Part shown: positions 2,616-64,000 of the stretch, piece after piece
Layout: each line of letters begins with the position of its first letter
How positions within the stretch are numbered: the first letter of the stretch is position 1
Assembly (NCBI RefSeq): GCF_037042905.1
Contig: NC_087251.1
Coordinates: 13,270,001-13,334,000 of the forward strand
Reading direction: 5' to 3'
Length of the DNA stretch: 64,000 nucleotides
DNA from: Lytechinus pictus
Taxonomy: Eukaryota
Position numbers and translations under genes: made by a program
Notes under the pieces: model-generated
The model's input: the letters and a program-made list of their open reading frames with translations, nothing else
Database searches by the model: none
What the model was told of the DNA's origin: nothing

Positions 2616-2686
2616 AATTAATCAGTTTTGAGGCTGATCATTATTCTGTGACAACTGTTTCATGCACGATTCTATGCCATTAGTGT

Positions 2687-3041
2687 ATAATAATAATAAT
2701 AATATTCCGCATTTATATAGCGCTTAATACATCGGAACGACGTCTCTAAGCGCTTTACAGACATATTATTACCCCGGTCATCGGATCCTTGCATGCCCGC
2801 ATACAATGTATGCACCTTCTCCACTCCCTGGGGAGCATTCCAACAAGAGTTCCAGGACTCAATTGCTAGGCATACTACATATAGGCTTTCACATCCTACC
2901 GGGTACCCATTTAACACCTGGGTGGAGAGTGGCAAAGTATGGATTAACGCCTTGCCAAAGGACGCTAGGCCATGGTGGGATTCGAACACACGACCCTCTG
3001 ATTACAAGGCGAGAGTCAGAACCGCTACACCACGACGCTTC
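2687..3041 (-). mobile_element. tRNA-derived SINE with L2-like 3' tail
   Basis: Minus-strand head GAAGCGTCGTGGTGTAGCGG...GTTCGAATCC (A/B boxes), body CACCCAGGTGTTAAATGGGTACC, tail AAGCGCT...AAGCGCTATATAAAT plus (TTA)n. Confidence 0.85.
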
Positions 3042-5891: not shown

Positions 5892-7416
5892 TAAAACCTC
5901 ACTTTACACTTGCCTCATCTCATCTTACATTGTCCTCTACATATATTTTATCATTATACGATCTTTGAAAAAAACCTCACTTTACACTTGCCTCATCTCA
6001 TCTTACATTGTCCTCTACATATATTTTATCATTATACAATCTTTGAAAAAAATCTCCCTGCACACTTTCCTCATCTCATCTTACATTGTCCTCCATATAT
6101 ATTTGTATTATCTCCTCTTTTGAAAAAACCTCACTGTACACTTGCCTCACCTGATCTTACATTATCCTCCATATATATTTGTATTATTTCCTCTTTTGAA
6201 AAAAACCTCACTGCACACTTGCCTCATCTCATCTTACATTTTCCTCCACATATATTTATATTATCTCCTCTTTTGGAAAAACCTCACTGCACACTTGCCT
6301 CAGCTCATCTTACATTGTCCTCTAAATATATTTATATTATCTCCCTTTTTGAAAAAAACCTCACTGCACACTTGCCTCATCTCATCTTACATTGTCCTCC
6401 ACATATATTTATATTGTCTCCTCTTTTGAAAAACCTCACTGCACACTTGCTTCATCTCATCTTACATTGTCCTCCATATATATTTGTATTATTTCCTCTT
6501 TTGAAAAAAAAACTCACTGCACACTTGCCTCATCTCATCTTACATTGTCCTCCACGTATATTTATATTGTCTCCTCTTTTGAAAAAACCTCACTGCACAC
6601 TTGCTTCATCTCATCTTACATTGTTCTCCATATATATTTGTATTATTTCCTCTTTTGAAAAAAACCTCACTGCACACTTGCCTCATCTCATCTTACATTG
6701 TCCTCCACATATATTTATATTGTCTCCTCTTTTGAAAAAACCTCACTGCACACTTGCTTCATCTCATCTTACATTGTCCTCCATATACATTTGTATTATT
6801 TCCTCTTTTGAAAAAAACCTAACTGCACACTTGCCTCATCTCATCTTACATTGTCCTCCACATATATTTATATTATCTCCTCTTTTGAAAAAACCTCACT
6901 GCACACTTGCCTCAACTCATCTTACATTGTCCTCCACATATATTTATATTATCTCCTCTTTTGGAAAAACCTCACTGCACACTTGCCTCATCTCATCTTA
7001 CACTGTCCTCCAAATATGTTTATATTATCTCCCTTTTTAAAAAAACCTCACTGCACACTTGCCTCATCTCATCTTACATTGTCCTCCACATATATTTATA
7101 TTGTCTCCTCTTTTGAAAAAACCTCACTGCACACTTGCCTCATCTCATCTTACATTGTCCTCCGCATATATTTCTATTATCTCCTCTTTTGAAAAAACCT
7201 CACTGCACACTTGCCCCATCTCATCTTACATTGTCCTCCACATATATTTGTATTATCTCCTTTTTTGAAAAACCTCACTGTACACTTGCCTCTGCTCATC
7301 TTACATTATCCTCCATAATATATTTGTATTATCTCCTCTTCTGAAAAAAATCTCACTGCACACTTGCCTCACCTCATCTTCCATTGTCCTCCATATATTT
7401 ATATTATTTCCTCTTA
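5892..7416. repeat. Same minisatellite in inverted orientation (~20 copies); right arm of the foldback element
   Basis: Reverse complement of the 1-2615 unit. The outermost variant (ctcacctcatcttccattgtcctccatatatttatattatttcctctt, ~7368-7415) mirrors window positions 3-50. Confidence 0.96.
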
Positions 7417-9012
7417 TGTAAAAACTTCATCAAACACTTATTTTCTACACTATAGACTCCTACGTTGTTTTATACACACACACACCATTTGAAAACTCTC
7501 GTTGGTTGTTCACGCTCGGTATATACACACACACACATGCACACGACCACGATCTAATGAATATTCATCGGCGAACCGTCGGATGGATAGTGACGTAGGA
7601 GCTGGACATTTTATCGCCCCGGCCCCTCGCTGTACTTTGTCATCAAAAGTGCCTACCGATGTATACCGTTATCTCTACCGGTATGGTTCAACCCGACGTC
7701 CGGACCGATCATACTGCTTCATGTTTGTTAAAGGGATTGTTTCACTTTGTGAGCAATTTAAAAAATTATCATATTGCTTTTTGAAAATGGTATGAACATT
7801 TGACTAACAGCTCAAAAATACCCATGTGAAAGTTTGGGATCATAACATGTTCGGGAAGTGTTTTTAAAAACTGAAAATCTGAGGCAATGTTTGAAGAGAA
7901 AAATGCACTTCTCGACGGTTGATTCATGATTCTGTTTCAAATTTAAATCGATATTATATAGCGCCACCTTGTGATGTATGCAAGAAAGTAGGCGGAGCTT
8001 ACCACGGGGAATTTCGCTTCTTGCGTGATCTGTGGGCGAAGTTAGTTTGTTTTGGGTTTTTTCTGTGTCTCCGCTCGGTGTGTGCGATAAGCGATCGATG
8101 CATGTGCGTTGCTTATTGCCTGTACTGTGTGAAAGGGTGTAGCTAGCTGTGTGTGTCGCTTGTGCATAACATTGGGGGAATATCATAGGTCCATGATCAT
8201 ACTGTCAAACTGTGTCGAACTCGTGAATGTCCATTCCGTCTGTGGTCTGTACATTTGAATATGCTACATGTATGCCTCATAATGAACTTTGTAGACTTAC
8301 AGACCATGGGATTTTGATGAATTTATATTTTGGCGACGTAAATTAGTAGCAAATAAAACGACAACAACAGAAAAGAACGCGACAAACCGGGGCTACAAAT
8401 ACAATCTCGGATCTACAGTGTAGAGTAATAGTAGTTTTTTTTTGTGGATCATGGGGGCCGGGGATGGAGCGTGATTTTCCAGAAGCTATATTGTGCCCCC
8501 CCCCCCCAAAAAAAAATCCCCTCTGTTCTTTTCTTTAGTTTACCTTTGCATGCACTACAAGATATATCCTTGTGGTTGTTGATAATTCTCTTTTACCTGG
8601 TCACGATATAGCAAACGTCCGTCGACTGATTCGAGAAGAGAATGCAATATAGCTCCATGTAATGCACTATCATGGAGCTGTAATATGTATCCGAACTCCA
8701 CTCTGGTCATGTTACGTCCACGTAGTCACAGGCCTTCGTGTGTCATGTGCATGTTTACATGCACACGGGGCATAGCTGGGTATAGACCAAAAGCTTCGGT
8801 CTCTGTTATGTTGGTTGTTACGCTGAACTACGTTGGCTCCACTCACCAAATACATTGTGTATGAGGAGAAATTAAAAAAAATCAAAAAATGTTGAAAAAC
8901 TCCTCGAAACAGACGGCTGCCAGCTGTCTAAGCTGGGTAGGAACTCGGAATAAAGGCAGTGACCTCTCCTTCTCCCCCCCCCCCCCTGGCATGGAAACAT
9001 CCACCATCGTGG

Positions 9013-12974: not shown

Positions 12975-14271
12975 CTCATGGCGCTTGTAGAAAAATAAAC
13001 ACAACACCCAACAACAATAGAAAACGAAAAAGAATAGAATTTGAATTCTCCTGAATGTAAATGGCAGATCAAAATTTAGTTTTCACTGGGACTTGAATTT
13101 TTCTGTTGATGAAAATATGGCGTAATTGGATAGGCAATCGATTCCATAGCTTAATTTGGTCCTATAACAGAGAATGCATCCCCCCATTTGTGTTTGGTTC
13201 TGGGTGTCTGGAGCAATAGAGCATCAGAATGATGAGCGGAGACTGCGTGAAGGCTGATATTTTGAGATAGAGCTGCGGAGATATTTTGGGGAAGAGAGAA
13301 TAAATTGAATAATAGTAAAATAATTTTGAAGGAGATTCTTTTATCAACAGGCAGCCAATGTAAGGACTGGAGGATTGGCGAGATGGAGTCATACTTTTTA
13401 GTGTATGTTAGGAGACGGGCAGCAGAGTTTTGTAGACGTTGAAGTTTTGTCCAATCTTTTTGCGGGACGTTAAAGAACAATGAGTTTGAAAAATCTAAAC
13501 GGGAGGAAATCAAAGCATGGATAATTTTAGGGGCTTTTTGTAGGAATTCATGAAAAGGATACGTATCTCATCGGGGTAGGCCCTAATGTGAGCGCGAAGC
13601 GCGAGATGATATTTTGTATATCCTCACCTAAAAATGTATAATGGAGAGTTTTTATCTCCCTCATCAAAATCAGAGCGTGGTGAGAAGCCTTTACAAACCA
13701 GAAAATTATATTTCTGAACTGTTTGCAAGAATTAATGAAAAGAAAGGTATAAAAATAATGCAAACTCGTAGCTATAGATGAAAAGTTATGACATTTGAGT
13801 TTGAAAAACTATTTTTTTAATAAGGAGTGTTTGTTGGAATTCATGGAGAGAATATAAGTATATCACTAATTAAAAGTTGCACGAATATTCATCCCTGGGT
13901 AAAGACATGCAAGATTATTTTTTTACGTTGAAAAGTGCATTAATGGTACAGAGAACGGGGGTATTACCGTCAGCGGTATTCCTTTTTTCAGCGTCTTAAT
14001 TCCTTTGCTTTTTCTATTCATTTTTTCCCTTTCTTTCTTTGCATCTATCTCCCGTTTTTGCACCACTGAAAGTAGCACCCGGGGCACGTGCCTCCATTGC
14101 CGCCCCGGCTAGATACGCCATGTAATAAAGTCCACTTTTCATGTCGGAAGAAATATCAGCTTGCGCTCCGCGCTCTAATCGATTGTTGAGTTATATATAT
14201 ATATATATATATACATATATATATGTATAACATGTACATGTATATATGTATAACATGTACATGTATAACTT

Positions 14272-20773: not shown

Positions 20774-20796
20774 ATGAAGGTGGTAGCTTTGGTCAG
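20774..20796 (+). CDS. DPH6: DPH6 coding exon 1 (MKVVALVS)
   Basis: ATG...GTCAG|gtaaat. Completes the PP-loop SGGKDS motif with exon 2. Confidence 0.9.
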
Positions 20797-23700
20797 GTAA
20801 ATAATACTCTGATTTATTCTCTCTTCAGATTTATCAGATTAGTTGATAGTTCAGCTGGCTGGGGTCTGCTTTTTTTTAAGTACAGTCCCACGTGCTCATT
20901 TCCAAGTGTGTCTTGATCTGTTCATGTCCACATGTCATCATGTCATGATCCATGGCCTGGCCGCCATGCATAGTCTTGAGGATTCCATGATGATGTTTTT
21001 AAAAAATATTTTGACATATATTTCTTCATCATGGAGTCTTGGCCTTATCGTCATCCAAGTCACTGGGGACAAACTTGAGATACAATGGAATCCACGGTTG
21101 AACGATTTTCAAAAGAAATATATTGTTCGCGGTGCAAAACGGTGTGAAGCCTCTCACTGAACAGGGACTTCCTTCCACCACACGTTTTCCCATTGACACA
21201 ATAACAACTGACTGACACTTTTTCAAATGACAAAAATAGTCTTCTTTTCTCTCCTGTGGCTATATATTCTTCCAAGTTGATGAAACAATGATCAAAAACA
21301 CTCTGGGCCTGGGGCTACACCGCTATTCCAACGCGTGTTGGAAAAGTCGACGCCAGACGGGTACGTTTTGGCCTTGATAGGTACGCTACTCTAGCGCGAG
21401 AGGGCGCGATTTTCGCGTCATCATTTTCGCGTACGAAAATGGCGACAAGCTGCTTCGGGAGCCGGTGCGAGCAATAACGGCAAGCCCTACTTGAGTCTCC
21501 TGTCTAGGATGGTAAACGTATATCAATGGGAATGAAAACGATGACATCATCTTCCCAATGCATTCAGCTATACTGCACGGTAAGCTCTTGCGACGGAGGG
21601 TCGAGATCGGAACAAAAATTGCACTAAAACAGTCTGTAAGTACAGTTTATGCATCAAATCATCATTATATGTTATTTTCATGGAATTATCAGACATATTA
21701 CGCTAAAAATACATATGCTACTCGAAAATTGAAGTCGTAAGCTTTCATTTCTTACCTCATTCATGGCAGCATTTCTTGCCACCATTTGCCACGGACGAAT
21801 GTTAAACGCCCTTGCTATTTGTTTCGTGGGATTTTCGTGGGAAGTTTGGCGACGCGTTTCGCGGGCTAATTTATGGCGGCTGCTAGGGTTTTTGGTTGCC
21901 CGCGGTGTGTAGTCCTGCGCATTGGAATTTGTGTAGCAGACCGTCTACCGTGATATGTCTGGTATTTCTTTGATTTAAAAAAACTTTTTCTTTTTTATAA
22001 ATTAGGAATTGAAAACCAGACACAAATGTAGAAATCAGAAATACATCCCACACTGACACACATTCATTTTGATTGAATAAAATATTGAAAAAAAATGGCA
22101 AATGACGCAACAACTTTCTGAATCTTCTCGAACCTAATTTTAGCCTTTACTTTAGTCTTGATTTATTATTTTATGATTATATTCTGTTGAAAATTCATGT
22201 AACATGATTTCTTTTGGCCTAATAAAACTTAAATTTTTTATTATTTTAAAAATGAATGGCCTAGATCTAATTTAATTCATTATCATTTTAATTTTCTTTT
22301 GTTTTCATTTTTTTATTTTCATTCAGATTAATTTCTTACCTCCATTTGAGCATGGCAATACTTACTGATCTGAAGTCGAGGGGCCCAACAATGAACAGAC
22401 TTGGGCTGCATGAGCCGTCGAATATCTGTGGTTCCAAGAAAGCGTGATGGAAATGCCGCCTTAAAAAAACCAACCCCACCTCTGCCTCTGGGCTTTGTTC
22501 TTGGCGATCCTGCATTCCATTCAGACTGCAACTTTAAGCAGGAATTGTTCTACCAACTACTTAATTATTCACAAATGTGAATTGCAGCTTTTAAATTGAC
22601 AAGAAAGAAACAATTGATTTATCTCACCCCCCCCCCAACTGTCTTCTAACATTTTCTATCACCCCAAACTAACACTTTTTTTCTTGTATGTCTGTTTAAA
22701 TATTTTTATTTAGACTTTATGTAATTTTTTCATGATTTATTTAAGAAGTATGAGCAAAAAAACAAACAATTTGGCACATGCAGTAGAGAAGAGAAGGAAC
22801 ATAGTGTTGAAAAAGGATACACATACAGATCTGAATATTAAAATAAATTTAAAAAAGAAATGACAAATCCACACTGACACATGAAAGTATTCATTTTATT
22901 TTTTTTCCTTGTTGGCATTGGTTACATTAATTAACTCCACATAAAAATATAAATTGGATATTTTAACCGTATTAATGAAGTTGCTCAATAAAATTTAAAA
23001 TTAGGTATTCTCATTGGAGGTAATGGTTGATACAGATGGGTGGGTGGACCTGCAGCCACTAGCGTACCTATGGGGGGGGGGGCAGACTGCCCCCCCGACG
23101 AGTCACAACCCATGCAAGGGACGTATCCCTGCCCTCCCCCCCTGATGAGCCACCGGTGGCCCCCTCCTTTGAAGTTTAAGACCGAAAGTACGAAATCCTT
23201 TATTTGTGGTTGAAGACTTTTTTGCTTGTCAAATTTTTGGGCGGACGATTTTGCCCCCCCCCCCCCCTGTGGAAAATCCTAGGTACGCTACTGCCTGCAG
23301 CTCTATTGTTTTATTAGATTTTCATTTTTTATTGCTGGGGGGGGGGGGTATTATGTAGAGCTGAAGCCAAATGATCTTATGAGGCAAGATTCAGTGTACA
23401 GCTCAATATGGTGCATGTAAAGTGATTTATTAAACTTTTGAAATATCAATTAAGAACTGGAATGATGAATGATATGAATATAAGAAATATATTAAATGCA
23501 TGTAAAGTGATTTATTAAACTTTTGAAATATCAATTAAGAACTGGAATGATGAATGTTATGAATATAAGAAATCTATTATATGCTAGTTCATCACAACTT
23601 TAGCTGGATCTTGCTGCAGAAAGTGCATCGTGTAGTTCTACAAATATCTCTGGTGAGAGGCAGTTTGGCAGAGCGGATGCAATGCTTCATAGGGCCCCTA

Positions 23701-26700
23701 ACATTTCTGTGGTAAGGTCGAATCCAAACTGATGTTTTCATCAAATGATACAGCCTCCTGGCTACAAAAATTTCCTGTAGATGAAAGAGAAAACAAAATA
23801 ATGAATGCAATGAAATTGGGAAAAAAGTGAGGCTAGAGGAGCAAAAACAAAAGCAAATGGTTGTAAAGTTAGTACAGGAGAGGAACAAAATGAGAAGAAA
23901 GGAACTCACAGAAAAGGAAACAAAACAGAGAGACAAACTTGAGACTAGCTCCTTTAAAAAAAGTTCTGTATGGTGTACTATGGATCTGTAAAAATATTTT
24001 AAAATTATGTAAAGTTTCAAGGATTGAGCATGCATAGGAAATCACGTAAAGGCAAGGATATCAAGTCACGAATAAAAACAAAAAATGAGGGGGGGGGGGG
24101 ATGGGAATTACATCACCCCCCCCCCCCCACCCCGCCTCTCCAAAAAAAAAAAAAAACGACTTTAATAACTTGTCAAAACTCTATCTAGTATCAGCTTATG
24201 TTATTATCCTTTTTAATGTTATTGTTAGGGATCGAGAGAAAGGATGAACGCGGGGGGGGGGGGTGCATTTTTGGATTCATACTTTCAGGCATCAGTGTAC
24301 TGAAGGGGAACATTAAACATAGGACTACAAAAAATTGCGATGGACAGACAAGAAACAAGAAATGATGATTAAAATGAAAGAAAAAATTATCGATCTCAAA
24401 ACAACTTGAAAAAAGAAAGATGCAAAACCAAATGTTATCAACTCACTTACATATTATATTTGAAATCCATCCCAATGGTCTTCCATGTCGTAATTGTGCA
24501 CTGTAATTCAGATAATCTAGTTAAAACATGTGAAATTAACTTCAAGTCTCAAATCAATCGTCTTGCACACTGTGCCTTGCAAAACAACAAAATACTCCGA
24601 TATATGCGTATCATGAACGCACATGCATATTTATGAGCGCCGCGAAAATGACCAATCTCATTCACAAATGATGCGCACTTACGCTTCGTCACCATGCCGC
24701 GAGAAGCGTTTATGCGCGATGTAAAATCTCCGCCCCGAATTGGCAATCCCCGAATGCGCATGCGCGGTGGTGATTGATACTCGATGGTCGACAATTCGTT
24801 CGGAATGGATAATACTTAGAAATCATTTCTTAAAAAAATCATAACTTGAGTTATTCTTCATCATATGTCTTAATCAATGCATCATCGTAATGGGTGACAC
24901 ATTTTCTTTATGTTGAGGTAAGTTTCAACAGATTTGGATGAAGATTTGAATTATCAGTGGCGTACCTAGCCTTGAATTTCCAGCAAATTCATATAAATTA
25001 CGGCCTAAATCTAGGTCTAACTTATTCATTATATACTAATTTCTTAATTATAATGTAAAATGGGTACTCACGGGTTCTTTTCTTTCCAAATTTTGTGTTT
25101 TCATCGCCTCTTCTGGCCAACTCTTGCGATGGCTGTTGTCGCCATAGGATCCTGTACATGCAAATCCAGGGCGAGTTGTCACATGATGCTCGCGAGTCTC
25201 TAGGGGTAATGGCCTTTAATCAAGGCATTCTTTTTGCTATAATTTTATAATGACGCTTAAATATCGAAATCAATGTAGACGAGTCTGTGCAGGGGCATAA
25301 CAGGGGTATATAAGAGGGGGCATAGCACATGTCGCGTGTGGAAGATAATAGTTACGTAATGTAAGTCCCGAGCACTAGCGTACCTAGGGGGGCAGTCTGC
25401 CCCCCCCCCCTCCCGATGAGTCACAAACCCATGCAAATTACGTATCTCTGCCCCCCCTGACGAGCTTGAAGACCTTTTTTTTTTTTTTTTTTTTGTCAAA
25501 TTTTTTGGCGGCCGATTTTGCCCCCCTGTGGAAAATCCTAGGTACGCCACTGCCCGCACTACATGCATGTTGGTAGCACTGGGACCTCTGGATATTAACT
25601 AATCCAATTTAATTACAGATGGCAGATTTTTTTATTATCTGAGTAGATCCCCCCCCCCCCCCCCCCCCCGGATTATTTGTTCTCACATGACTTTCCTTCC
25701 ATTTTACATTTCCTTTCGTTCTTTCTTTCTTTCATTTTTTCTTTCTTTCTTTCTTCCTTCCTTTGCTCTTATCATGTTTTTTTTCAGGTGAAATCCACTC
25801 GGGGGATGGCCAGCCATGCCCCCATCTGTTTACGCCTCTGAGATGTAGGCTATACTCATGATCTTAATCTTCGATTTTCCAAAGTAGGGGGGGTGCATTT
25901 TCTCAAGTAAAATTTGACAACCCCCCAAAAAAAGGTTATCACAGAAAAATGGTCATTTTGTCTCGCGTAAGATTTGACAAGTAAAACAAAAAAGATGGTT
26001 ACTAAAAATAAAAGACTGTCATTTTGTCCGTGTAATATTTGGCAAGCCTCCCCCCCCCCCCAAGGTTAACATATCGGAGGCGCGATAGCTCAGTCGGTAG
26101 AGCGGGGGTTTCGGATTCCGGTGACCCAGGTTCGATTACCAAGTGGTGCGCTAGTGCCCTTTGGTAAGGCATTTATCCTCATTACCAGGTCCCTCGGAGA
26201 GGACCTTAAGCCGTCGGTCCCCTGGTTGCTTGCTCACAGGCATTCGTGCTTGTTTAGCAGTCAGGTAAAAAATCTCGATATAACATAACATTAAAAAAAA
26301 GTGAAGGTAATTTTGTCCTGCGTGAAATTTTAAAAGTAATAAAAAGATGGTCACTAAAATTGAAGTTCATTTTGTTTGTGAAATATTTGGCAAGCCCCCC
26401 CCCCAAAAAAAAAGGTTTTAACTAAAAATGATTGAAGGCCATTTTGTTCCTCTTAAAATTTGTCAAGTATAAAAAAAAATCACTAAAAAATGAAGGTCAT
26501 TTGTCCCACGTAAAATTTGACAAGCCCCCCCCTAAAAAAAAAAAATGAAAGGTAACTGATAATGATTGAAGATCACTTTTTTCTTGCGTAAAATTTTACA
26601 AAAAAAGTGTGTCACTATTTGGCGAGCCCCCTACCCCCCCCCAAAAAAAAGGTTTAACTAATAATGATTGAAGGTCATTTTGTCTCTCGTAAAATTTGAC

Positions 26701-29700
26701 AAATAAAAAAAAAGTTGTCACTAAAAAAAGAAGGTCACCTTGCCGCGCGTTATATTTGGCAAGCCCCCACCCCCCCCTAAAAAAGTTTGTCATTAAATAT
26801 AGAAAGTCATGTTGTTCAAAGTAAAATAAATTTGAGAAGCAAAAAAGAAAAGGACAAAAAAGAGCAAAGAATATGAACAAAATATCCCCATTACAAATAT
26901 TGCTGTGATTCTCATAAGGAGGTGGGGGGGGGGGGACATAACTTTGTACGAACGACATATTTTTTTTTACATCCAAAATATTGACTATGAATCTCAAAAG
27001 GTGGAACGGGCCAGAAATGCTCAACCACCCCCCCCCCCCCCCGATCTGCCACTGATTCCAATCGATAATGACTTTTCCCTGCAATACTGATGCTTGAAAT
27101 CAAGATACTGAAGATTGATATATTGTAATATAAATTATGAACGTCTGACAAAAAGATAACCAACCGATCACCTGACCGATCAGCTGACCAGTACGTGAAT
27201 CACATCGGAGTTGATCAGTCCCCACAGCGTTTGGAACGCTCACCAAGAATTCAAGAAAAAAGAGTGAAAATGTAAGTTTAACCTCAATCCATTAACTTTT
27301 AACCATTGTAATAGATTATTTAAGATGTTAAGAACTAATTTATACCAAAATTTTTACCATCCAATTTGTATTAAGGCGTACATTTGCCAAAGTCCTTGTG
27401 TGCAAATAGAAACGGCAATGTCTAACCGGTTTTATCACTTATGTCGCCTATGAGGTCCATACATGTAATGTTGGACCTCATTGGTACTAGGAGTGATCAA
27501 AAACACTAAATCAAACAAAATTAATCACAATAAAAACACTATTTAACTGTCTTATTACTCCTCGTGATCCGAGTCCCCTTCCCATGTTGAGACTACCAAT
27601 TTGCCATAGGATAACGAGTAATAGCATATTACTCGTTATCCGAGACCCCTCCTATGGGAAATTGGTAGTCTCAACACGGGAAGGGGACTCGGATCACGAG
27701 TAATAAGACAGTTAAATAGTGTTTTTAATGTGATTTTCATTGAATTCAATGATTCTTATTATCAAAAATATTCATTTATCATCTCTAGGAACTGTCTAAA
27801 AGTGGCAGAGTGGTTTTGAAGTGGGAAATGAGGGGTAGATGAATATCAACGGGTTAATTGCCGTTTTGTATTTTTAGGAGAGGGGACTTGGATCACGAGA
27901 AATAGTACTCCTCGTTATCTAAGTCCCCTCTTATGAGAAATTGGACAGTCTTAACACGGAAAGGGGACTCGGATCACGAGGAGTAATTAGACAGTTAAAT
28001 AGTGTTTTTAATATGATTTTCATTAATTTTAATGATGCTTATCAAAAATATTCATTTACCATCTCTAGGAAACTGTCTAAAAGTGGCAGAGTCGTTTTGA
28101 AGAGGAGGGAAATGAGGGGTAGATGAATATCAACGGGTTAATTGCCGTTTTGTATTTTTAGGAGAGGGGACTTGGATCACGAGTAATAGTACTCCTAGTT
28201 ATCCAAGTCCCCTCCTATGAGAAATTGGACAGTCTTAACACGGGAAGGGGACTCGGATCACGAGGAGTAATTAGACAGTTAAATAGTGTTTTTGATATGA
28301 TTTTCATTAATTTTAATGATTCTTATTATCGAAAATATGCATTTATCATCTCTAGGAAACTGTCTAAAAGTGGCAGAGTGGTTTTGAATAGGAGGGAAAT
28401 GAGGGGTAGATGAATATCAACGGGTTAATTGCCGTTTTATTTTAGAGGGGGGACTTGGATCACGCGGAGTAGTTTTATAGTGTTTTAATTCAATTCTATT
28501 TATTTTAATAATTCATATTATCGAAAATAGGAAACTGTCTAAAAGTGACACAGTGATCGATTAATTCGGATGAAGGGGGAGTTGAATCACGAGGAGTAAT
28601 TATACAGACATTCTTTTTACCTGACGAAATAAAGCAATGGAGACTGTTAAGAGGGAGATGCAATTCTGATTTATTTAGTAAATTAGGAATCAACGAAATA
28701 AAGCAATGGAGACTGAAGAGGGATAAGGCCTATTGATTTATTTAGTAAAAACATAAATAAAAATATAAATATAATCCTGATTTATTTATATGAAAAGCAC
28801 TTGTATATGACTCTAAAGCAGTAGAGATTGAAAAGAAAAAGATGCAATTCTGATTTATTTAGTAAAAACGTAAACGAAATAAAGCAAATTTTATATTGTG
28901 AGAAACATAAAAAGATGAATATAATCCTGATTTATTTATATGAAAATTACTAGTTTACGAACTAAAGCAATAGAGATTGAAAAGAAGTAGATGCAATTCT
29001 GATTTATTACGCCAATAAAGTGGAGACTGAAAAGAGACAAGTGACACACAACTACGAGGTTGGTACTGGTAGAGACAGGTAGGACATGTTTTACATTGTG
29101 AAAAATTGTCCGTGGATACGAGTCACCGGGGACTTGGATCACGATAATGCCGGAGTTTTGAATCCCCGTACATATATCTATAAGAGACACATGTACACAA
29201 AGATGGATTTCCCTAGGAAATCCATAGAGGGTGAAATCGGTTTGTATTGTCGAATTTTATATATCTATGAACCTTCAGGCGCCTAATGCGTATAAAGGGA
29301 TAAAAATTATTTCAATATAAATGGTAAAAATGAGACGTTTCTTACCAGACCCGATCTCCCGTAGATCCCTCGATCCGTTTGTCAACAAAGCAAAGACAAT
29401 AGACCTGACCCTTGAACCGATTCGTGATGACGTACTTCCGACTAGTGATGCCGTTTTGAATAACAATTTATAGATAAAAATATTATTTCACAAATTATAC
29501 TAAAATTTAATAAGTGATTATAAATAATTAGTTTATACTACTTAAAATTTCTTAATTTGAGCAATAAGAAACTTTTCCAGATGTCGAAAGTCTTTCGCTC
29601 TTTGCTTCAGTTCATCAACATCATCATTTGAGGTGCACAGCATCCCACACAACTGCAAGGCTTCTGAGGTCATCTGAACACGCTGCTTTGCGATTTCCTT

Positions 29701-32700
29701 CAGTTTGTCCTCTTTTCTGCGCTTATTCAGAAGTAACTTCTCAGCAATCTTTTCTTTAATTGCTTTACTTCTTCCTTGGTAAAGCTGGAGAAATGACTTC
29801 CTTTGCCTCACATCTTCAGATAAGTACTGATCTTTCTTCTCATCTGACATTTCATCCAAATAGTCTCTGCGCACAGGTTGTCTTTAGGACATGATGCAGT
29901 TTGTTTCCGTATGTTCTCTGGAGCACTGTGATATCGTCCTCCTGGCAAATGATCTGACAGCTGGCATGTGATACAAACGAGACAATTTTGAAGTATTATC
30001 ATTAGTGCTTGCTTGGTAAGATGTTCAATGTTTGCACTGCAAGGGTCATAGAGAGATTTGTGGATTGAATCTTTGACTGGTGGAAATGCTGGAAAGAGAA
30101 TGCTACTGTCCGTTAACAGTGGTGATGGATCTACCATCCACTCCTGAACTTTATTATGCAGTCTTGTATAGTGTTGATCAGTGTCCATGACATGCGAATG
30201 ACTTTCCAACATCCTCATTAATGGGGCAGAAATGTGCTGATTTATGATACCCATTTCTCTGATTCCTGATACAAATATGTCATCATCAAAGTCAGCTTTC
30301 AATGATTTGACATACATATTTCCTTCACGTTTTGAATCTAATGATGCACAGAGCATGTGAAAGTCTGAAATGTGGTGATATACTGCCGCAGAGTTGTGGA
30401 ACGGTACATTAAATCTGTTTCTCCTGTATGCAACTAAGGATGATTTTTGCACAATTGTCTTGAACTCTTCAGTCAAACCAGACTTCGTCGCAGTCAGGAC
30501 CAAGAAAGTTGCAAAAAGAACGAACGGCAAGTAGACTAGCTGACTCTGTCTTGCTTCCGTTCCAAAGGACTTGCTTCTCTCTCCCCAATTTTCCTTCATT
30601 CGCTTCCACTTTTTCCCACTCACAAAGGGCACTTGCAGAATATTCCTGTAGATTCAATACCAGATGCTTTCCACAATATAAATCATTAATAGTAGCTATC
30701 ATCCAAGCTCTCCCAGTTTTCTATTACCTGCGGAAGAATGTTGGATCTCCACAGCTCTAGTTTATTTATGTAGAGCTTATTGACAATGGAACGATCAGTC
30801 ATTGTTGTCTTGAATTTAGCCAAGAGACGGTGGACTTCATTTACATCATCACACAGATTAAGACGAACTAATTACTCTAGAGTTTCCTTGGTATCTGTTA
30901 AGAGTGATTCTCCTGTTTCAACCTCAATGTCATGAAGACTCATTCCGACAGTTTGATCTTTTGTGGAAGCTAAGAATGTGACATAGCCTTTCCTTTTTTT
31001 GGTTGTGCCATCCGTGTGAAGAGTGACAGGAGTCTCAGATTGATGTATCGCACGTGAACATTCCTTATTGAGCAAGGCTTGCTCAACAGCAAGATACCGT
31101 ATTAGTGTCGGTTTAGGCAGTCTGCTAATCTTTTAATTTTTCCTTAATTTTTTTCTTTCCTCTCAATTCATTTCTTGTTTCCTCATTTCTTTCTCTTTTC
31201 TTTTTTTCCGCTCACACTCCCTTCCCCTAGTAGACATGCAAAAAGCGAACACCAGCAAAACCGGTTGTGCTCATCGATTAGTTATTTGGTTCTTTTGTTA
31301 TTGTCAACAGTCTGGGAGAGTCTTGCTCCCCGCCCACACCTTTGATCACATCTGCTTCCCAATTGATGACAGGATGTTCATAGAAATGGGGGGGGGGGGT
31401 TAATTTGTTGATACTTTAACAACAATAAATGAGGATATTCTTTTCATTTCGGTTCAAATCGGGTCTCTAAAACCCTCACCCTATAAGAAGTATAAATTTA
31501 CCTCAATGTAACAGATGGAACAGATTTGTCTTTTGCTAAAACATCTGATCACATTACCTGCTTTCTATTGCGGTTTTTAAGTTACATTGGTAGATATTCG
31601 AATTGGGAAGAGATGAAAGTTGTGGAATTAATAAAGGGGAAGAAGGAAGAGGAGGATGGGAAAAATGAAGAGGGGTTCCAGCTTCATGATGAGAACAACG
31701 CATATATTACGCGCAATCTTATACAAAACTATAGATGGGATTAAAACGAATATTAATATCCCTGATACACCTACATGACGATAATAACACGAATAATTGA
31801 CGTCGAAGTAAAGATTAAACAATCATATTTACGAACTGTGGTTTTATATTGATAGATTAGTCGGAAATCAATTATAAAGTTAAAAACATTTTTTTTTCAA
31901 TCATTTTATTTCAGTAAAGCAAGATTTTCCTTCGAAATATATTTTGTTATATGAATTGGAAATGATAAAACCAAGTCACAACTTGGTATAATACAGAATT
32001 CAGTGTTATATGGCAGATCAAAATAATAATACATGACATTTGTAAAGCGCACTTTCCATCTTGATTATATGCTCAATGCGCTTCAGAGCAAAGCAACAAA
32101 AGCTATTTACATAATGTAACTATTTAAAAAATTCCTAGCACATTTAGCTTCAATGTTTAAACAAATACCCAAGCAAAAGTATGTTTTCGAAAGCTACTAT
32201 GACGTAGTGTGTGGAATGGGAACTTAACGAGTTAATTATCACTTGCCGACAAAGCAAGAATGGAGCTATACAAACCATTTTTTTCTTTTGTTAAGAGATT
32301 TGGTGGGTGCTCACGCGAACGCTAACTATCAAACCTAACTATTCTTATCGGGGAACAAAGGAGTTAGTCAAGTACTGCAGAACTATAGGGTATCCATATT
32401 TCCATGAAACAATAAGCCCCCTCTATTTTCTCTTTCTCCCCTTTCCCCTTCTTTATTTTGCTCCCTTTCCCTACCCTCACTTTTTTATTTTGTATTTCTC
32501 TTATCTCTTTCCTTCTCGTTTTCCCTCTATCCCTTCCTATTTGCCTTTTTCTTTCATTTTTCTTTCTTCTTCTTTCTTGAATGAGCGGATGTTAATTCGG
32601 GACAAGTTTTTAATTGATGCAACGAGAGCAGGAAATTGTGAGCATGGTGAGAGAAAATAATTACAAGACTGAGCGCAAGAATGTTCAATACTTGTCATCA

Positions 32701-35700
32701 GCGAAGACAACTGGAACATTTCCCAATTTTTTCTTCCCACTTTCTCTCTTTTCCTCTACTTTTTCTAAAGTCCCACTTCTTTTGTCCCCTGTCCTTCTTA
32801 CCTTTTCCTGCACCCTTCCTTCTCTTCCCTCCTTCGCTTTTTTATTCCATTTTATTATGTCTCCCTTCATCATTTTATTTAATTTCCCCCTCCTTATCCT
32901 TCTCTCTTTCTCATTCTGTCATTCTTCCTTTTCTTCCGTTGCCTCTTCTTCTCCCCTTTGATTTTCAATATATTTTCCTTTTCTCCTTTTCCCTCTTTTC
33001 TTTCTGTCTCACCTTCCCTTTTTTCATCCCCTCTGTTTTCTTCTCCATTTCACCTTTTCCTTATTTCTTTTCTTTACCCCCTCTCCCTCTTTCTCCTCCT
33101 GGTCCACCCCCCCCCCACTCCCCTTCTCTCATTTTTTCTATATCTCTTATCTCTTTCCTTCTCGTCTTCAATCCGTCCCTTCCTTTTCGCCTTTTTCTTT
33201 CATTTTTGCTTTCTTCTCCCTTTTATCTGCATCTCGTAGATCCGCGCCTGAAAGGCAAATCAGGGTATAGAATAAAAAAGGATGACCATGCAGGGAAGCA
33301 ATAGAGTAAATAGTTCTAGGACGACCCCCGGAATGTAGGGTCAACATCGACAAATGGCAGCTCCATTGTCAGAACCTCATTTACGATCACGACTAACCAT
33401 GTCAGTGAATGAAATAACGGACACCACGGGAAGAATATTTATAGGAAAGGACCCTTTACGCTGTTGCCAGTGTGTAATCGAACACAATAAGTAATTCGGT
33501 GAAAAAGCCTAAAATCCCAGTTATCAACCCAAAACTTTGTAATTTTCATAACAGATTTTATCCATGATAAATGATGAGAAAATGGCTTCGAAAACTTATG
33601 CTTGATATGAGATAAAAATCACATGCAGTCTTGAACGAATGTGTCAAATCAGACCTCTTCTTTCGACCAAGAATGCACGGCCGAACACCCTAGGATAGCC
33701 GCGGAAACTACCCTCGGGCACTCATGCCCTAGGGGAGCGAACGCGGGCGTCTTCCCTCGTCCGCTCCCCTCAAATGTCCGCTACGGGCTACCGCGTTCAC
33801 CCTAGGGGGCACTGTGAAGTTTCCCGCGGCCGGCACTGTATTCCTTCGCACGGGAGATGAAATGAACCCATGGGTGGCCCAGACCCTGATAGATACTCAT
33901 CATTTTATCTGAATCTGATTTTTTTTTGTACTTCCTTTTCCCACTCAGTGGAGGCAAGGACAGTTGCTTCAATATGATGCAGTGTGTTGCTGAAGGTCAT
34001 GACCTGGTTGCTCTGGCTAATCTCTATCCAGAAGATGTCGGTGAGTCTCTGATCTCTTCTTTGGTAAGGTCCTGTCCCTTTCAAGGATGAAATAATACAT
34101 GGTGAAATCTAAACATATCTAGAGTAATGTATAAACAGATAAATAAATTAGATAGTAAATTGTAAAAGTTTTAAATGTTCCGTAAGAAAAGTCATGTTCA
34201 TCAGCTTTGCTTTCACTGTAAATTTTACAATTCCCTGTAATTGTGTCTCCAAACTTGGGATAAAAATAGAAAAGAGTAAAGACATTGAGAGGGATTTTTG
34301 CTCTAAGCAGCTGGAAGTGGTTAAGAGTTTTTTTTTAAATTGTATCATAACTGTATAGGAAAATATCATAAGATTAAGTTTAAAATTGAAAATGTTGATA
34401 TGGTTAATAGATGAATTAATGAAATATACAACAATAATTACTAGACATATTTGTTTAAAACGTGTGATGGTTTAAACATTTGACATTTCCCCTTTGTTTA
34501 AAGAGATGTAAATCTATTGCTCTCCAGGCCACACCCTTTTGGTAATTGTTAAAAGAATATAAATCTTTTGGCTTTTAAAGCACATAGTATAATTTACAGT
34601 ACTTCAATAGCCTACATATATATTTGTGGAAACGTACTCTTCTAGAGTCAGACTTGCTTGTGATGTTTTTTTTATTAGTCTGAATGTACATTATATTTCT
34701 TTCTAACTAACATTATGCAGCAGAATTCTTAACGCCTGGTAGTATAATCATTGATATTATTATTTAAAACTTATTGATGTTAGACTGTGTACTACAGTTT
34801 AGTATTGAACTGTAAATATTACCTATTGCTCTGTATGACCTTTTTCATATTCCTCTCCCAACACCTTCCTATGTACATGTAGATGAGTTGGACAGTTACA
34901 TGTTCCAGACCGTTGGTCACCATGCAATTGACCTCTACTCTCAGGCCATGGGTTTACCCCTCTACCGAACTGCTATAAAGGGAGGGTCTAAGGAACAGGG
35001 GAGTGACTACCAACCCACAGATGGGGATGAGGTGGAGGACCTTTTCTTGCTCCTGAAGAAAATCAAGGCAAGCATTAATAACATGTTTACCACATATTGA
35101 TTAAAAAGTCATCAAAAAATTATTTTAATATTTATTTCAATGATTATGAAAGTTATTTTTGTCATGTAAAAATGCAGATTGAGGATGATTAATTTGATTG
35201 ATGTTACGAGAGTTATTAAGTTTCTTGAATGAAGACCATCCTTTTTCCTTCAATATAAGCAATGGCAAGGGACAATATTTCTGTTATATCTCTGTTAATT
35301 TTGTTTTTGTTTTATTTACCCAAATATTCGTCTTAATAGTTATATAATTTACTCTTTATCAAACTTCTTAATTTGTAATGGTAAATGTGTCTTAAGTAGT
35401 TTGAATACGAATGTTACATAGAATAAAAAATAGTTGGATTTAGATTTAGCCCTGTGGAAAAGTCAGTCTATCTAAGATTTCACCAAAATACCTGCTACCA
35501 GACATTGAAGAAGCAATAGAAATCACTGAAATATCTTTGGGACTCAGTCAATCAAATTGTACTTTTGAATTAAATGACAGACATCCTTTTGCTTGCTTCA
35601 GCAAAGATCAGAGTAAAGGTACATAGGAAATGACTTATGAAGCAAATAATCGTGTTACGTCCCATGTCTCGTGGTATAAAATTTTTGTTGGAGAAAATTT

Positions 35701-41700: not shown

Positions 41701-44700
41701 TTGGATTAACACTTGAATCGATATCAAATGATTTGTTGTGAGCGCACTTGTATGTTACCGGGTAATTATTGTACCTGTGATATGTTACTCGTGACCAGCA
41801 GGGTTGGGCTCAATTACAAGCTAATTTATCAATTACGTAATTAATTACATTTTTTTAGTAATTGTAATTGAAATTTTGAAAGGGAAAGAAATTTAATTGT
41901 AATTGAAAAAAATGTAATTGAATTCAATTACTGTCATTTACTTTTAATTACATTCAATTACTTTACAATAAACTTACTTAATTTATGATTTAATATCATG
42001 ACCTTTTTCATGTCAACTGCTTCAGCATCAAAGAGTGTAATAGGCAGAATCTGTGCTCTTTTAATAGCATAATTAAACCTTCACCTTGTCAGTCTCTCTG
42101 TAACTTAGAGTTATGTTGAAATAGGTGGTGCTAGTACATACAGAGTACAAATTGATTTCATTTTTGACTTTTATAGAAACTAATTGATAATTGTCATTGA
42201 AAAAAAAAGTAATTTAATTGAAAAGTAATTGTAATTGAACATTTCTTCAATTACATAATTGTAATTGAAGAAAGTAATTGAGCCCAACCCTGGTGACCAG
42301 TGACCTTGAAAACTCAGCTTTTGTCCCAGCCATGTCCCAGCCATGTTTTATCTGACTGCTAAGAAAGCACGAATGCCTGTGAGCAAGCAACCAGGGGACC
42401 AACGGCCTAAGGTCCTCTCCGAGAGACCTGGTAATGAGGATAAATGCCTTACCAAAGGGCAATAGCGCACCACTTGGGAATGGAACCCGGGTCACTGGAA
42501 TCCGAAACCCCCGCTCTACCAACTGAGCTATCGCGCCTCCCTCATGCATATAATTCCTACAAACTTTCTCAGTTATGTGTAGTCTGACCCTCTAACTTTC
42601 CTTGTTGAATCATTGCATATTCATATAGGTGCATGATTAAAAAAAAAGATTATTTCATATTATTAGCATTTTCTTTCAAACAGTATCAGAGAAAAATAAA
42701 ATAATTTATTCATTTTAGTGACTCTTATTATAATTCTAGGCACAAGTATTGTGCAAAGAAAATCATTAATTTATGAAAATACCAAATAACAATTTTTGAA
42801 TATTTTTTTATTCAAAATACTCCAACACTCAAAATTGAATAGTTTGGTGCATTTGAGGAGAGTTACTGCCAAAATGTCAGATATGCTTTAGAAATACTGT
42901 GTGTAATACTATTGCATGCTCGTGCAAGGGAGCCGGCAATGTAATAGATCACAAACTCAACATGCGTACCATGATCTCCGCCCACCTTCGTGCGTGTATC
43001 CGCATGCATTGCGCTGCTGGTATAATAAAATCAGCAAAATAAAGGCTAAAAAGAGGCCCGAGCAGATCTGTGTAGATCTAGTCATATTCCTCTTTTTCCT
43101 CTATGTTGGTTATTTGGTCTACATTGGCTATGCCATCAAATCAAGTGTAGTATAAAATAAATATTCAATGTTTTGTCATTCGTGCAGCCATTCAAATACA
43201 TGTATTACATTCGGTGAAAGTTGAAGCAGTCTATTTAACTATGCTTCGTGTTGTTGAATAAACTCTTTCAACTTGCACGCTCATGTAATATTCAGAACGA
43301 TCGCACTCATAAACATTTAATGTTTGTATAATATTTAAAAAAAACAATTCTGTGGTTTGAAAAATTGACTTATTGTATTGTCATGTTCCTTGTTGAAAAG
43401 GGTAATATTGAAACAAAAAGTTTGTATAATTGAATTCTGGTGTAGAATTTGGGAGTTAAAAAGGCCATGACAAAAATTTTTACAGTGGTATCTAGAGAAA
43501 GGACAATACCCTCTTCAACTGTGTTATTTAAAACAAAATATTCTTTATGCTGTAGAACACTAGCATGTTACGACATCAAGAGTTTCCTTATCCCTTTCCT
43601 TGTTTTTCTTCACAGGGTATGTGTTCAGGCTGACTTACCAGAAGGTATAGCATTACAGCTAGACTGTCTAGCCCATCACACCCCCACCCCTGCCCCAGGG
43701 TCAGGCGAGGGAGGGGTTGAGAGGGACCCTGCCCATTATAGGACCACCATGCATGTCCAGGGTTACTCACATTGGGCACCTGCCAATGTAGGACCTTACA
43801 GTCAGGCTGTACAGGTATGATCATAATGTTCATAATAAAGCAGCCCCAGCTCCCAAAGAACTCACTAAGTGACAAAGACATCAAATTGAATATGAATATG
43901 AAATGATAAGATTGATATTAACCCGTGAAATGGATTAGATTTGAATAAATGACATTAAAAGGTTAAATATGACAAGAAAAATAATCTAAACAATCAAGAA
44001 ACTATTCAACTTTGAAATATAGATCTTTAAATTGGTAAATCTGATGCATAAAAGACGGGCTTCAGCTTGTCATTGTCAATGACCTATGATCAATGATCTA
44101 TTCACCTTTTGCAAGCATTATTATTAATTATTAGTGTTTATAATTGATAAGGATTAATTATAATATTTATCATTCTCAGATAGGTAGCCTTGTATTCTGC
44201 GCTGGAATGATACCTCTCTGCCCTAGCAACATGACCCTTATAGAGGGGGGCATTAATGCTGAGTCCAGAATCTCCCTGCGTAGCTTGACCAGAGTTTTAG
44301 CTGCAATGCATCCTGGGATGGGATTGAATCATGTTGTCATGGCAACCTGCTATGTCAACAAGTCAGGGTTAGAGGTGACAGCAAGGAGACACTGGGACCA
44401 GGCACTCAATGAAGAGAAGCATAAGGTATGTTCCAGATGGTGTTTCATAAAGCTGTTTATAAGATACTCTCAGTTACTCACAACTGGTGATCTGTTCTTG
44501 GGTGCTGAATCAGATTCAAAATCATTTGGATTTCTGTCAGCTAAGCTTGAAAACTGGATAGTACATTAAATCTCTTGTTTTCAACATGCATCTAGGGGTA
44601 AAAAGGTTTCTTTAAGCACAAGAATAGGTCACCAGTTGTATGTAAGTTATGCATAACTTTTGAACAGCTAATGAAACACCAGCCAGGTCATGATCTTAAG

Positions 44701-62236: not shown

Positions 62237-62616
62237 TCAGAAGCCCTCGATGAATCCGTAGGCTTCCAGACTGCAGAGAATCAAGTAGAGAAACCAAAGG
62301 GAGACAAAGCACATTGAAGATATCAGTTTTGATTTTGCAGGACCTCCCAACTCACCGCGAATCATCGGCAGCTTCCGCCGTATCATGAGAGAGCAGATGG
62401 CAAAGAGCGCAAACACGCTGAACACAGTCACAGAGAAACCCAGACTACCTGGGTCCACCTTAAATTGCTGGTTATGGACGGCGTGGTAAACAGCGGCAAT
62501 AGTCCATGCTACACCGATACCTAAGAATACATTTACTGCGTTGCTTCCAGTAACATTGCCTACGCTGGCATCTGCATACTTGTCACCAACAGCTGCTGTT
62601 TTGCTGGCAAATGTGT
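62237..62616 (-). CDS. SLC8A: Na+/Ca2+ exchanger (SLC8A/NCX family), last coding exon
   Basis: DTFASKTAAVGDKYADASVGNVTGSNAVNVFLGIG...GELGGP...SLEAYGFIEGF*. Confidence 0.96.
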
Positions 62617-63220
62617 CTGCAAAAAAGAGGACAGAACTTGGTATGAAGTTTCTTCATAAACACTTGAATTCTCAATCAACAAACCAACAACTACTAATTC
62701 TACTTAAAATAACAATACTAATGAAAAAATCCAGGCATTGCTTCCTTTTTTAAAGCCATTTACATTCTATGAATTATGCCAAGCAAACACACATATTTTG
62801 TAATGACAAATAATTTTGAATGCAATAAGTTTAGATGGGAAAGGTAACTGGAGGTAAATCTACCATAATTGGAGTCAGTACGGGGAGTGTTTCATGAAAC
62901 AAATTGTGATTTCACTGACAAATATGCTCTGAGCCAATCAGATGTAAGAAATCTGGTAGCTTATAAAATAAGTTGGTGAAAATCACTAACTTTTTGTTTC
63001 ATGACATGCTTCCCTAGTTACCTTCATAATGTTGATCATGTCAAGAATATTTGTGCAAGAAGCCTGAGCATTGTCAATGACCAAGATCAATGTAGACTGA
63101 CCCAAGCTAATTACCATGCTAAATCCTTCCAACCTGGCCCTCATATTTAGATTGGGCTTGATCAAATTGGTCAGTTTGGCAGTGGGAACAGATCATATGT
63201 TAAGACATTTAAGCTCTTAC

Positions 63221-63487
63221 CTGGAACACTGGTACCAAGGGCTACAAAAGAGATGGCAGTGACAGTATCTTTGAGGTTGATGGTGCAACCAAAGTGTGAG
63301 GCAAGGTCAGTGATGATAGCCGTTAACCCAGCGATGACCAAGATGGCGGATGTAAAGCAAGCCCAACCACCCAGGTAGTCAGTGGGTGGTACAAACGCAA
63401 AGAGGATCTTCCAGAAGATGGTCAAGAAGTGCATGACATAGTCTCCACAGGATGGCAGCTTTTCTTCCCCATTTGCGTCATCATCGC
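63221..63487 (-). CDS. SLC8A: Na+/Ca2+ exchanger (SLC8A/NCX family), penultimate coding exon
   Basis: EEKLPSCGDYVMHFLTIFWKILFAFVPPTDYLGGWACF...DLASHFGCTINLKDTVTAISFVALGTSVP (alpha-2 repeat); cag|...|gtaag. Confidence 0.96.
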
Positions 63488-64000
63488 CTGACAGGATATG
63501 GGCGTGTAAGAAAAGCAGTAACACAAAGAATTACTAACCAATTTTGAATTCTTATTTCAGAAATTGAAGTGCCTATAGTCTGCCTTAATTTGACCTTCCA
63601 TATCAAACGTCAAACAAATTCTGTGGTCCAAAGATATTTGACCTAGATACATTCACCTGTATTTTCATATTGGCTTGAATATACTCTGTATATGTACATT
63701 CCCACCTAGCAAATATATGAAGATTTAACTAGTATGTTAACAACTGTTAATATTTATATATTTGCTGCAACATTGTCTAAATTTAATGAGGAAAAACCAT
63801 CATTAAAGTTAGTAAGGTGGTTTATCTAATGGTGTAAGACTACTATATTTGTCCAATAAGTGCCCAGTTTTGACTAATTCAGTCTATAGATAATGAAGTT
63901 CTGTCAGATTTATGAGTATAATGTGGTGGTGACTGGCAACGTTATAGTCATGTTAAGGTTAAATCAAGATCTTTATGGTCTGAATTCACAAAGACTGTTA

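What the first reader, a model, noticed from the sequence alone, without database searches (positions are those of the whole stretch)
21305..33886. 12.6-kb intronic block with two convergent, highly diverged transposases of one hAT-like family between related inverted ends
Seen: both ends begin GGG(C/T)CTGGG(G/C)C..AC reading inward, and each leads into a CpG-rich subterminus. A + strand transposase C-terminus (23605-23945, ASCSSTNISGERQFG) and a - strand catalytic core (29542-31133, DGTTK/MTDR/CGKH/ASCPKDNLCAE) point toward each other, with a palindrome/tandem-repeat core between them. Removing the block leaves an ordinary 570-bp intron. Established: D-D-CxxH-E is the hAT/P/Kolobok-type transposase architecture. 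Inference: this is either one composite element with two paralogous transposase genes, which would be an unusual architecture, or a tail-to-tail fusion of two related elements. The absence of a TSD slightly favours fusion.
Basis: partly seen in the sequence, partly recalled or inferred. Interest (0 to 1): 0.72.

Follow-up and report, generated by a model that had tools for sequence, protein, structure and literature searches.

The report
Two dead transposons lying tail-to-tail
This 12.6-kb stretch in the first intron of a sea-urchin gene holds broken pieces of two different jumping-gene enzymes that point at each other, most likely the remains of two separate dead elements that came to lie side by side and not one element with two enzymes.

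Summary
The two relics, the 11-base end motif and the 570-bp remainder are real; the reading 'one family' is not. The left relic is 95% identical (111/117 aa) to Lytechinus gene LOC121416261 (family A) and is an internal-deletion derivative, not just a C-terminus. The right relic is 97% identical (513/531) to LOC121428993 (family B). A and B are only 22-23% identical, sit far apart in a 90-protein tree, and each keeps a full D-D-CxxH-E core. An A-clade model folds like Hermes (Z 19.1; P element 10.2), and both families end in a Spindlin-like domain. The annotated L. variegatus A and B genes lie on different chromosome-size contigs. The ends share nothing beyond about 14 bases, have no target duplication, and a third end-like motif at 29352 could be A's own far end. 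Best reading: two dead single-transposase hAT-like elements tail-to-tail, plus nested small repeats. Not tested: empty site and end pairing elsewhere (no genome, no reads). The scan noted Spindlin-tailed transposases on other DNA of this genome, but no look-alike of this block.

The parts
20774..20796 (+). Host gene first coding exon (MKVVALV-S), likely diphthine-ammonia ligase DPH6
   Evidence: a later exon (34816-35097) hits Pfam Diphthami_syn_2 at E 0.0037, below the curated cut-off; the N-terminal SGGKDS motif as DPH6 is recalled
20797..33948 (+). Intron 1, 13,152 bp, GT..AG
21041..21070 (+). 30-bp flank stretch, 25/30 inverted match to 29122-29151; possible old repeat outside the proposed left end
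   Evidence: significance unresolved
21305..21315 (+). Left end motif GGGCCTGGGGC; inferred 5' end of the family-A element
   Evidence: assignment inferred from position upstream of A-derived DNA
21305..21960 (+). CpG-rich left subterminus
23057..23293 (.). Nested MITE-like repeat with inverted ends and an 8-bp target duplication (CCTGCAGC)
23412..23584 (+). 85-bp tandem duplication in DNA that lies upstream of the family-A gene
23547..23607 (+). Match to predicted aa 1-21 of LOC121416261 (10/11 and 9/9, one frameshift); 5' side of the internal deletion, junction at a shared TGG
23604..23943 (+). Family-A transposase relic, aa 730-843 of LOC121416261 (708-821 of LOC129279140), catalytic E only, two frameshifts
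24560..24820 (.). Internal CpG-rich segment of unknown origin
   Evidence: link to the left subterminus tested and not significant
25373..25552 (.). Second copy of the same MITE-like repeat
25898..26861 (.). Degenerate tandem repeat, followed by a MITE-like end at 27054
26076..26273 (+). 198-bp interspersed repeat, 93% identical to 42343-42540; SINE-like (inferred from a recalled tRNA-like head)
27523..27735 (.). Long near-perfect palindrome
27609..28464 (+). 284-bp x 3 tandem array; with 28576 and 29128 it gives 8 direct copies of a 16-bp motif running up to the 29352 end, like a subterminal repeat array
29345..29352 (-). Third end-like motif GGGTCTGG, same orientation as the right end; candidate far end of element A or of a third element
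   Evidence: assignment inferred
29551..31132 (-). Family-B transposase relic, aa 371-800 and 833-938 of LOC121428993; D, D, CGKH and E present; three frame changes, one in-frame stop, first 370 aa and the tail missing
32400..33250 (.). C/T-rich low-complexity stretch ending in a MITE-like end
33876..33886 (-). Right end motif GGGTCTGGGCC with CpG-rich subterminus; inferred 5' end of the family-B element
   Evidence: assignment inferred from position only
33949..34040 (+). Host gene exon 2 (GGKDSCFNMMQCV...)

Best explanation
The block holds deleted remnants of two different hAT-like transposase genes pointing at each other, and is most likely a pile-up of two separately inserted, now dead, single-transposase cut-and-paste elements rather than one two-enzyme element. 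Shown: the left relic comes from family A and lost about 700 codons by an internal deletion with a 3-base microhomology; the right relic comes from family B and lost its first 370 codons and its tail; small repeats sit nested between them. Inferred: element A runs from 21305 and likely ends at the end-like motif at 29352 behind its repeat array; element B runs leftward from 33886 and lost its far end when A landed in or beside it, or in a later deletion. That would also explain the missing target duplication. The shared 11-base terminus would be a superfamily signature, not a matched pair.
For: Relics match two separate annotated genes at 111/117 and 513/531 aa; those are 22-23% identical. In a tree of 90 proteins, 528 columns, A (29 proteins, support 0.997) and B (9, support 1.0) are not sisters: 65 of the 88 others are closer to A than B is, 82 of 88 closer to B than A is. 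Both families keep D, D, CxxH and E and a Spindlin-like tail (21 of 29 A, 7 of 9 B at E<1e-5; reversed control best 0.28), so neither looks like a helper subunit. L. variegatus A and B genes lie on contigs of 48,679,898 and 33,098,554 bp; B's 90% cluster has 1 member, A's has 2. 0 contig lengths shared between 55 A and 10 B values. No similarity between the two subtermini past the motif (35 and 30 of 100 shuffles as good; p 0.29; p 0.36-0.47). No target duplication. A third end motif lies inside: 3 copies of GGG[CT]CTGG in the intron, 0 in the other 50,849 bases, 3 of 300 simulations reach 3.
Against: No genome and no reads were examined, so which end pairs with which elsewhere, and the empty site, are untested. 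The 21305/29352 pair also lacks a target duplication and shared subterminal sequence. The outer two ends share more (12 of 14 with one gap) than 21305 and 29352 do (7 of 8). B has no far end in the window, and the link of 33886 to B rests on position. The two relics are of similar apparent age (95% and 97%). The linkage tests see only predicted proteins: a broken partner gene would be missed, both searches were incomplete (906 and 8000 candidates scored), only the longest contig is given, 3 of the 10 B contigs are under 6 kb, and most A records are unnamed and may come from other animals.
Confidence: 0.68

Rival explanations
1. One-off hybrid macro-element: A and B first came to lie tail-to-tail elsewhere, then one transposase used A's 5' end and B's 5' end together and moved the whole 12.6 kb into this intron.
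For: The two outer motifs are the best-matching pair and face inward around both relics; removal leaves 570 bp; use of the ends of two nearby elements is known for maize Ac/Ds (PMC4270019, passages) and paired Zator-1 elements moved cargo in amphioxus (PMC12905397, passages).
Against: A fresh move should leave a target duplication: none of 4 or more bases, while a nested MITE kept its 8-bp one. The ends share no subterminal motifs and the enzymes are 22% identical, so cross-recognition is doubtful (inference).
Confidence: 0.14
2. The boundaries are wrong or the relics are filler: the ends belong to other non-autonomous elements (or one is chance), the transposase pieces were captured, and repeat DNA extends into the left flank (end-like GGGTCTG at 20862).
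For: Coding relics make up about 2.0 of 12.6 kb and are cut on both sides; 216 chance 11-mer pairs are as good as the ends; 21041-21070 matches the core's subterminal motif inverted; filler DNA is known in Ds2 and Ds-like elements (PMC3260210, passages).
Against: DNA just upstream of the left relic is A's own upstream DNA, as expected of a deletion derivative in place. The 20862/29352 anchored alignment has p 0.07 and unrelated A/T-rich windows score as high.
Confidence: 0.13
3. A true family of composite elements that carries two convergent, deeply diverged transposase genes between one pair of ends; this is a decayed copy.
For: Convergent layout between similar end motifs; similar apparent age of the relics.
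Against: A and B are not sister clades, are unlinked in the annotated L. variegatus copies, share no contig length, and each has a complete core and tail. None of 6 metagenome loci showed a second transposase, though all are under 4 kb.
Confidence: 0.05

Closest known systems
Hermes and the hAT superfamily (PDB 8edg, 4d1q, 6dwz, 8sjd)
   Same: D-D-CxxH-E core; the model of A-clade protein P0160 has Hermes in all top 10 Foldseek rows (E 3e-7 to 1.2e-5) and top VIA-align Z 19.1, rmsd 4.3, 342 aligned.
   Different: 11-14% identity; no Pfam hAT family in 40 of 40 members scanned; no sequence hit to a solved transposase among 28 hits at E<=10; coiled-coil N-terminal part and Spindlin-like tail; ends begin GGG; no target duplication here.
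Maize Ds-del / Ds2 / Ds-like decayed hAT copies (PMC3260210, passages)
   Same: Internal-deletion derivatives that keep ends and pieces of the transposase, with unrelated internal DNA.
   Different: Those were defined by paired 11-bp inverted repeats with 8-bp duplications; here the pairing is unproven and two families are involved.
Alternative transposition / composite insertions of Ac/Ds (PMC4270019, passages) and paired Zator-1 cargo unit of amphioxus (PMC12905397, passages)
   Same: Ends of two neighbouring elements can bound one larger unit.
   Different: There both ends are of one family and duplications flank the unit; here the enzymes are 22% identical and no duplication is seen.
KolobokP composite-like transposons (PMC9587614, passages)
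   Same: C/DxxH-type DDE enzyme, composite-looking layout, invertebrate hosts.
   Different: KolobokP has long terminal direct repeats of about 450 or 660 bp and a His-Me nuclease; no long terminal direct repeats are here.
Spindlin / Spin-Ssty domain (PF02513)
   Same: Intact relatives of both families end in a matching domain (PDB Spindlins E 2e-16 with the mixed profile; Z 8.0 for P0160 563-632).
   Different: Both relics have lost it; profiles of A alone or B alone do not reach Spindlin; histone binding is untested.

Membership tests
hAT superfamily | [quoted passage not shown] | tested here: met
   of 90 proteins D1 84 (6 gaps), D2 90, C 89, H 90, E 88; all present in the B relic, only E in the A relic
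hAT superfamily | Hermes-like fold (RNase H core with helical insertion) | tested here: met
   on A-clade relative P0160 (51-53% identical to family A); family B was not folded
hAT superfamily | Pfam hAT domains (BED finger, hAT dimerisation) | tested here: not met
   0 of 40 members at E<=0.01. So filed as hAT-like, not canonical hAT
hAT superfamily | 8-bp target duplication (5, 6 or 7 in subgroups, PMC12730594) | tested here: not met
   none for 21305/33886 or 21305/29352; only a 3-bp CTG with the ends moved in by one base. Dead, rearranged copies can lose it
hAT superfamily | Short terminal inverted repeats with shared subterminal motifs | tested here: inconclusive
   8- to 11-base motif at three places; nothing shared beyond it
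Repbase hAT subgroups (hATw, hATm, hATx; resemblance to hATw is recalled only) | Clustering with named Repbase or Dfam consensus proteins | not testable with these tools
   no Repbase or Dfam library; paper searches and one supplement gave no defining sequences
P element | Closest fold is the P transposase | tested here: inconclusive
   6p5a is found but far weaker than Hermes: Z 10.2 against 19.1, E 0.023 against 3e-7
Kolobok / KolobokP | TTAA target duplication; long terminal direct repeats in KolobokP | tested here: not met
   flanks read CTCT and TGAT; no long terminal direct repeat
Composite / macro-transposon | Outer ends flanked by one target duplication | tested here: not met
Composite / macro-transposon | The same end pair and gene pair recur at other loci, or an exact empty site exists | not testable with these tools
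   no genome is held and no reads were laid; indirect protein-record tests found no link

The most novel reading that the evidence does not exclude
The 12.6-kb block moved as one unit: a hAT-like composite bounded by the 5' ends of two families whose transposases are only 22% identical and carrying both genes tail-to-tail, which would mean one enzyme accepts the end of a deeply diverged relative through a shared 11-base terminus. A conserved two-gene family of this build is the strongest form (about 0.05).
Probability: 0.14. Interest if true: 0.7.

Novelty: new member of a known kind. Interest (0 to 1): 0.27.

Why it matters
On the best reading this is an ordinary pile-up of dead DNA transposons and matters little in itself. 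It does supply candidate ends for two hAT-like families that carry only 'uncharacterized' labels, have no Pfam transposase model and end in a Spindlin-like domain. One lead is worth keeping: remnants of two such families lie about 0.5 kb after the start codon of one gene, where Spindlin's known mark H3K4me3 is usually high (recalled). If the block did move as one unit, it would show end recognition across very distant transposase families.

Tried and rejected
Own-genome search: no genome is held. Sequencing runs that hold the left flank exist (4 of 16 rows with 0.63-0.70 of the words, one study; the other 12 rows 0.15 or less, not evidence), but no reads were laid, so the empty site and depth are unknown. 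Related loci: 6 metagenome contigs of 1.3-3.9 kb, too short for ends or partners; none in viral or prokaryote contigs for B or A. End patterns in viral contigs: 4 hits for the left end, 18-19-base chance matches; 0 for the other two. An internal partner for the left end at 24.6-25.4 kb: two inverted 10-11-mers and a 6-mer score of p 0.003 picked from about 1,270 windows, but alignment p 0.23 and 0.69: rejected. A left end at 20862 paired with 29352: p 0.07-0.11, matched by unrelated windows: unresolved. Rfam: 4 weak miRNA-family matches far below gathering scores. ESM Atlas: unnamed eukaryotic clusters only. Earlier findings by sequence or place: 0 look-alikes. Papers: no description of a two-transposase convergent hAT element (0 papers with 5 of 6 terms), of a Spindlin-tailed transposase (2 listed, off topic by title and abstract start) or of these Lytechinus families (none of the 12 listed of 108 holds 'Lytechinus'); searches gave no classification. 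Repbase Reports and most subscription papers are not held, so absence from print is not shown. Tree: 96 proteins of 600 aa or more were aligned, 6 dropped for low coverage, P0145 (2,443 aa) left out beforehand.
Full report
Setting. The block lies in intron 1 (20797-33948, 13,152 bp; 570 bp without it) of a gene that is likely DPH6 (weak Pfam hit in a later exon, E 0.0037; the N-terminal motif is recalled). The closest proteins are from Lytechinus sea urchins. No genome is held for the window and no reads were laid on it, so all tests of linkage are indirect.

Ends. The 11-base motif occurs only at 21305 (+) and 33886 (-) in the window, and none of 300 simulated introns had two. But the motif was picked after the fact, 216 inverted 11-mer pairs between the flanking regions match as well, and nothing is shared beyond about 14 bases. 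No target duplication of 4 or more bases flanks the ends at symmetric offsets, while a nested MITE at 23057-23293 keeps a clean 8-bp one. A third copy of the 8-base core lies at 29352 (-), 200 bases past the right relic, behind eight direct copies of a 16-base motif, the 284-bp array and the palindrome. The 8-mer occurs 3 times in the intron, 0 times in the other 50,849 bases, and 3 of 300 simulations reach 3. That looks like a subterminal array leading to an element end (inference).

Relics. The right relic covers aa 371-800 and 833-938 of L. variegatus LOC121428993 at 513 of 531 identities, with three frame changes and one stop: family B. The left relic covers aa 730-843 of L. variegatus LOC121416261 at 111 of 117 (109 of 117 to L. 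pictus LOC129279140): family A. The 60 bases before it match predicted aa 1-21 of LOC121416261 (scores 48 and 56; next best elsewhere, apart from the tandem copy, 25 and 28), joined at a shared TGG. So it is an internal-deletion derivative and the DNA upstream is A's own. Those 21 residues may be non-coding DNA read by the gene predictor, since the L. pictus model starts differently; the conclusion is the same. How far A extends to the left is inferred. A superfamily HMM finds no other relic in the window.

What the enzymes are. A and B are 22-23% identical. [quoted passage not shown] A model of the A-clade protein P0160 (pLDDT 93) has Hermes as best match in both fold searches (Z 19.1 against 10.2 for the P transposase). 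No Pfam hAT family matches (0 of 40), so I call them hAT-like; placement in a Repbase subgroup could not be tested. Intact members end in a Spindlin-like domain (21 of 29 A and 7 of 9 B), which both relics have lost; profiles of A or B alone do not reach Spindlin.

One element or two. A (29 proteins) and B (9) are well-supported clades far apart in the tree, among 23 clusters at 40% identity; sampling was centred on the two queries, and an ancient pairing is not excluded by a tree. The annotated L. variegatus genes lie on contigs of 48.7 and 33.1 Mb, and neither 90% cluster holds a member on the other's contig. No contig length is shared between 55 A and 10 B values, nor, by eye, with 15 further B-like records. 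These tests miss broken partners and rest on incomplete searches. Against my reading: the 21305/29352 pair has no duplication or shared subterminus either, the outer pair is the better motif match, B's far end is absent, and the relics look similar in age.

Mechanism. Shown: two deleted transposase genes of separate families, convergent, with nested small repeats. Inferred (0.68): two independent cut-and-paste insertions, A spanning about 21305-29352 and B running left from 33886 with its far end lost, then deletions and secondary insertions. Rivals: a one-off hybrid moved by its two outer ends, as nearby Ac/Ds ends can act together (PMC4270019, passages; paired Zator-1, PMC12905397, passages), 0.14; wrong boundaries or captured filler (PMC3260210, passages), 0.13; a true two-gene family, 0.05. 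It is not KolobokP (PMC9587614, passages): no long direct repeats, no TTAA. hAT duplications are usually 8 bp, 5-7 in subgroups (PMC12730594, passages). PMC8721813 and PMC10175614 were read as passages and added nothing.

Novelty. The arrangement is most likely ordinary decay. The two families seem unnamed in the papers searched, but Repbase Reports, most subscription papers and bioRxiv supplements were out of reach and may well describe them. Earlier notes of this scan describe Spindlin-tailed transposases on other DNA of this genome; whether they are family A or B was not shown (0 look-alikes by sequence). Interest 0.27.

Noticed in passing
P0159, P0161 (family A) and P0005-P0008, P0162, P0163 (family B): Intact members of both families end in a Spindlin-like domain; two such families left remnants about 0.5 kb after one gene's start codon, a possible hint of promoter-directed insertion.
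   Followed up: partly
window 27200-29352: Palindrome, 284-bp array and eight copies of a 16-base motif lead to an end-like GGGTCTGG at 29352; owner unknown (A's far end or a third element).
   Followed up: partly
window 20862-21110: End-like GGGTCTG at 20862 and a 25/30 inverted match to 29122-29151 suggest old repeat DNA in the supposedly ordinary part of the intron; not significant overall.
   Followed up: partly
window 1-2617 and 5893-7429: Two arrays of one 76-bp satellite (34 and 20 copies) in opposite orientation, about 3.3 kb apart.
   Followed up: no
window 33731-33771: A 41-base imperfect palindrome inside the right subterminus.
   Followed up: no
window 26076-26273 and 42343-42540: Two copies, 93% identical, of a SINE-like repeat; a similar-looking stretch lies near 2700-3000.
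   Followed up: no
window 62240-63530 (-): Exons of a neighbouring gene that look like a sodium/calcium exchanger (recalled motifs, ORFs).
   Followed up: no
window 13154-13567 (-): ORF fragment that looks like the end of a LINE reverse transcriptase (recalled).
   Followed up: no
P0017 / P0235: A Branchiostoma member of this transposase group is labelled 'myosin-9-like' in NCBI, presumably from its coiled coil.
   Followed up: no
P0183 cluster: At least seven listed members of 1,008 aa lie on different long contigs, which suggests a recently mobile A-clade family in an unnamed assembly.
   Followed up: no
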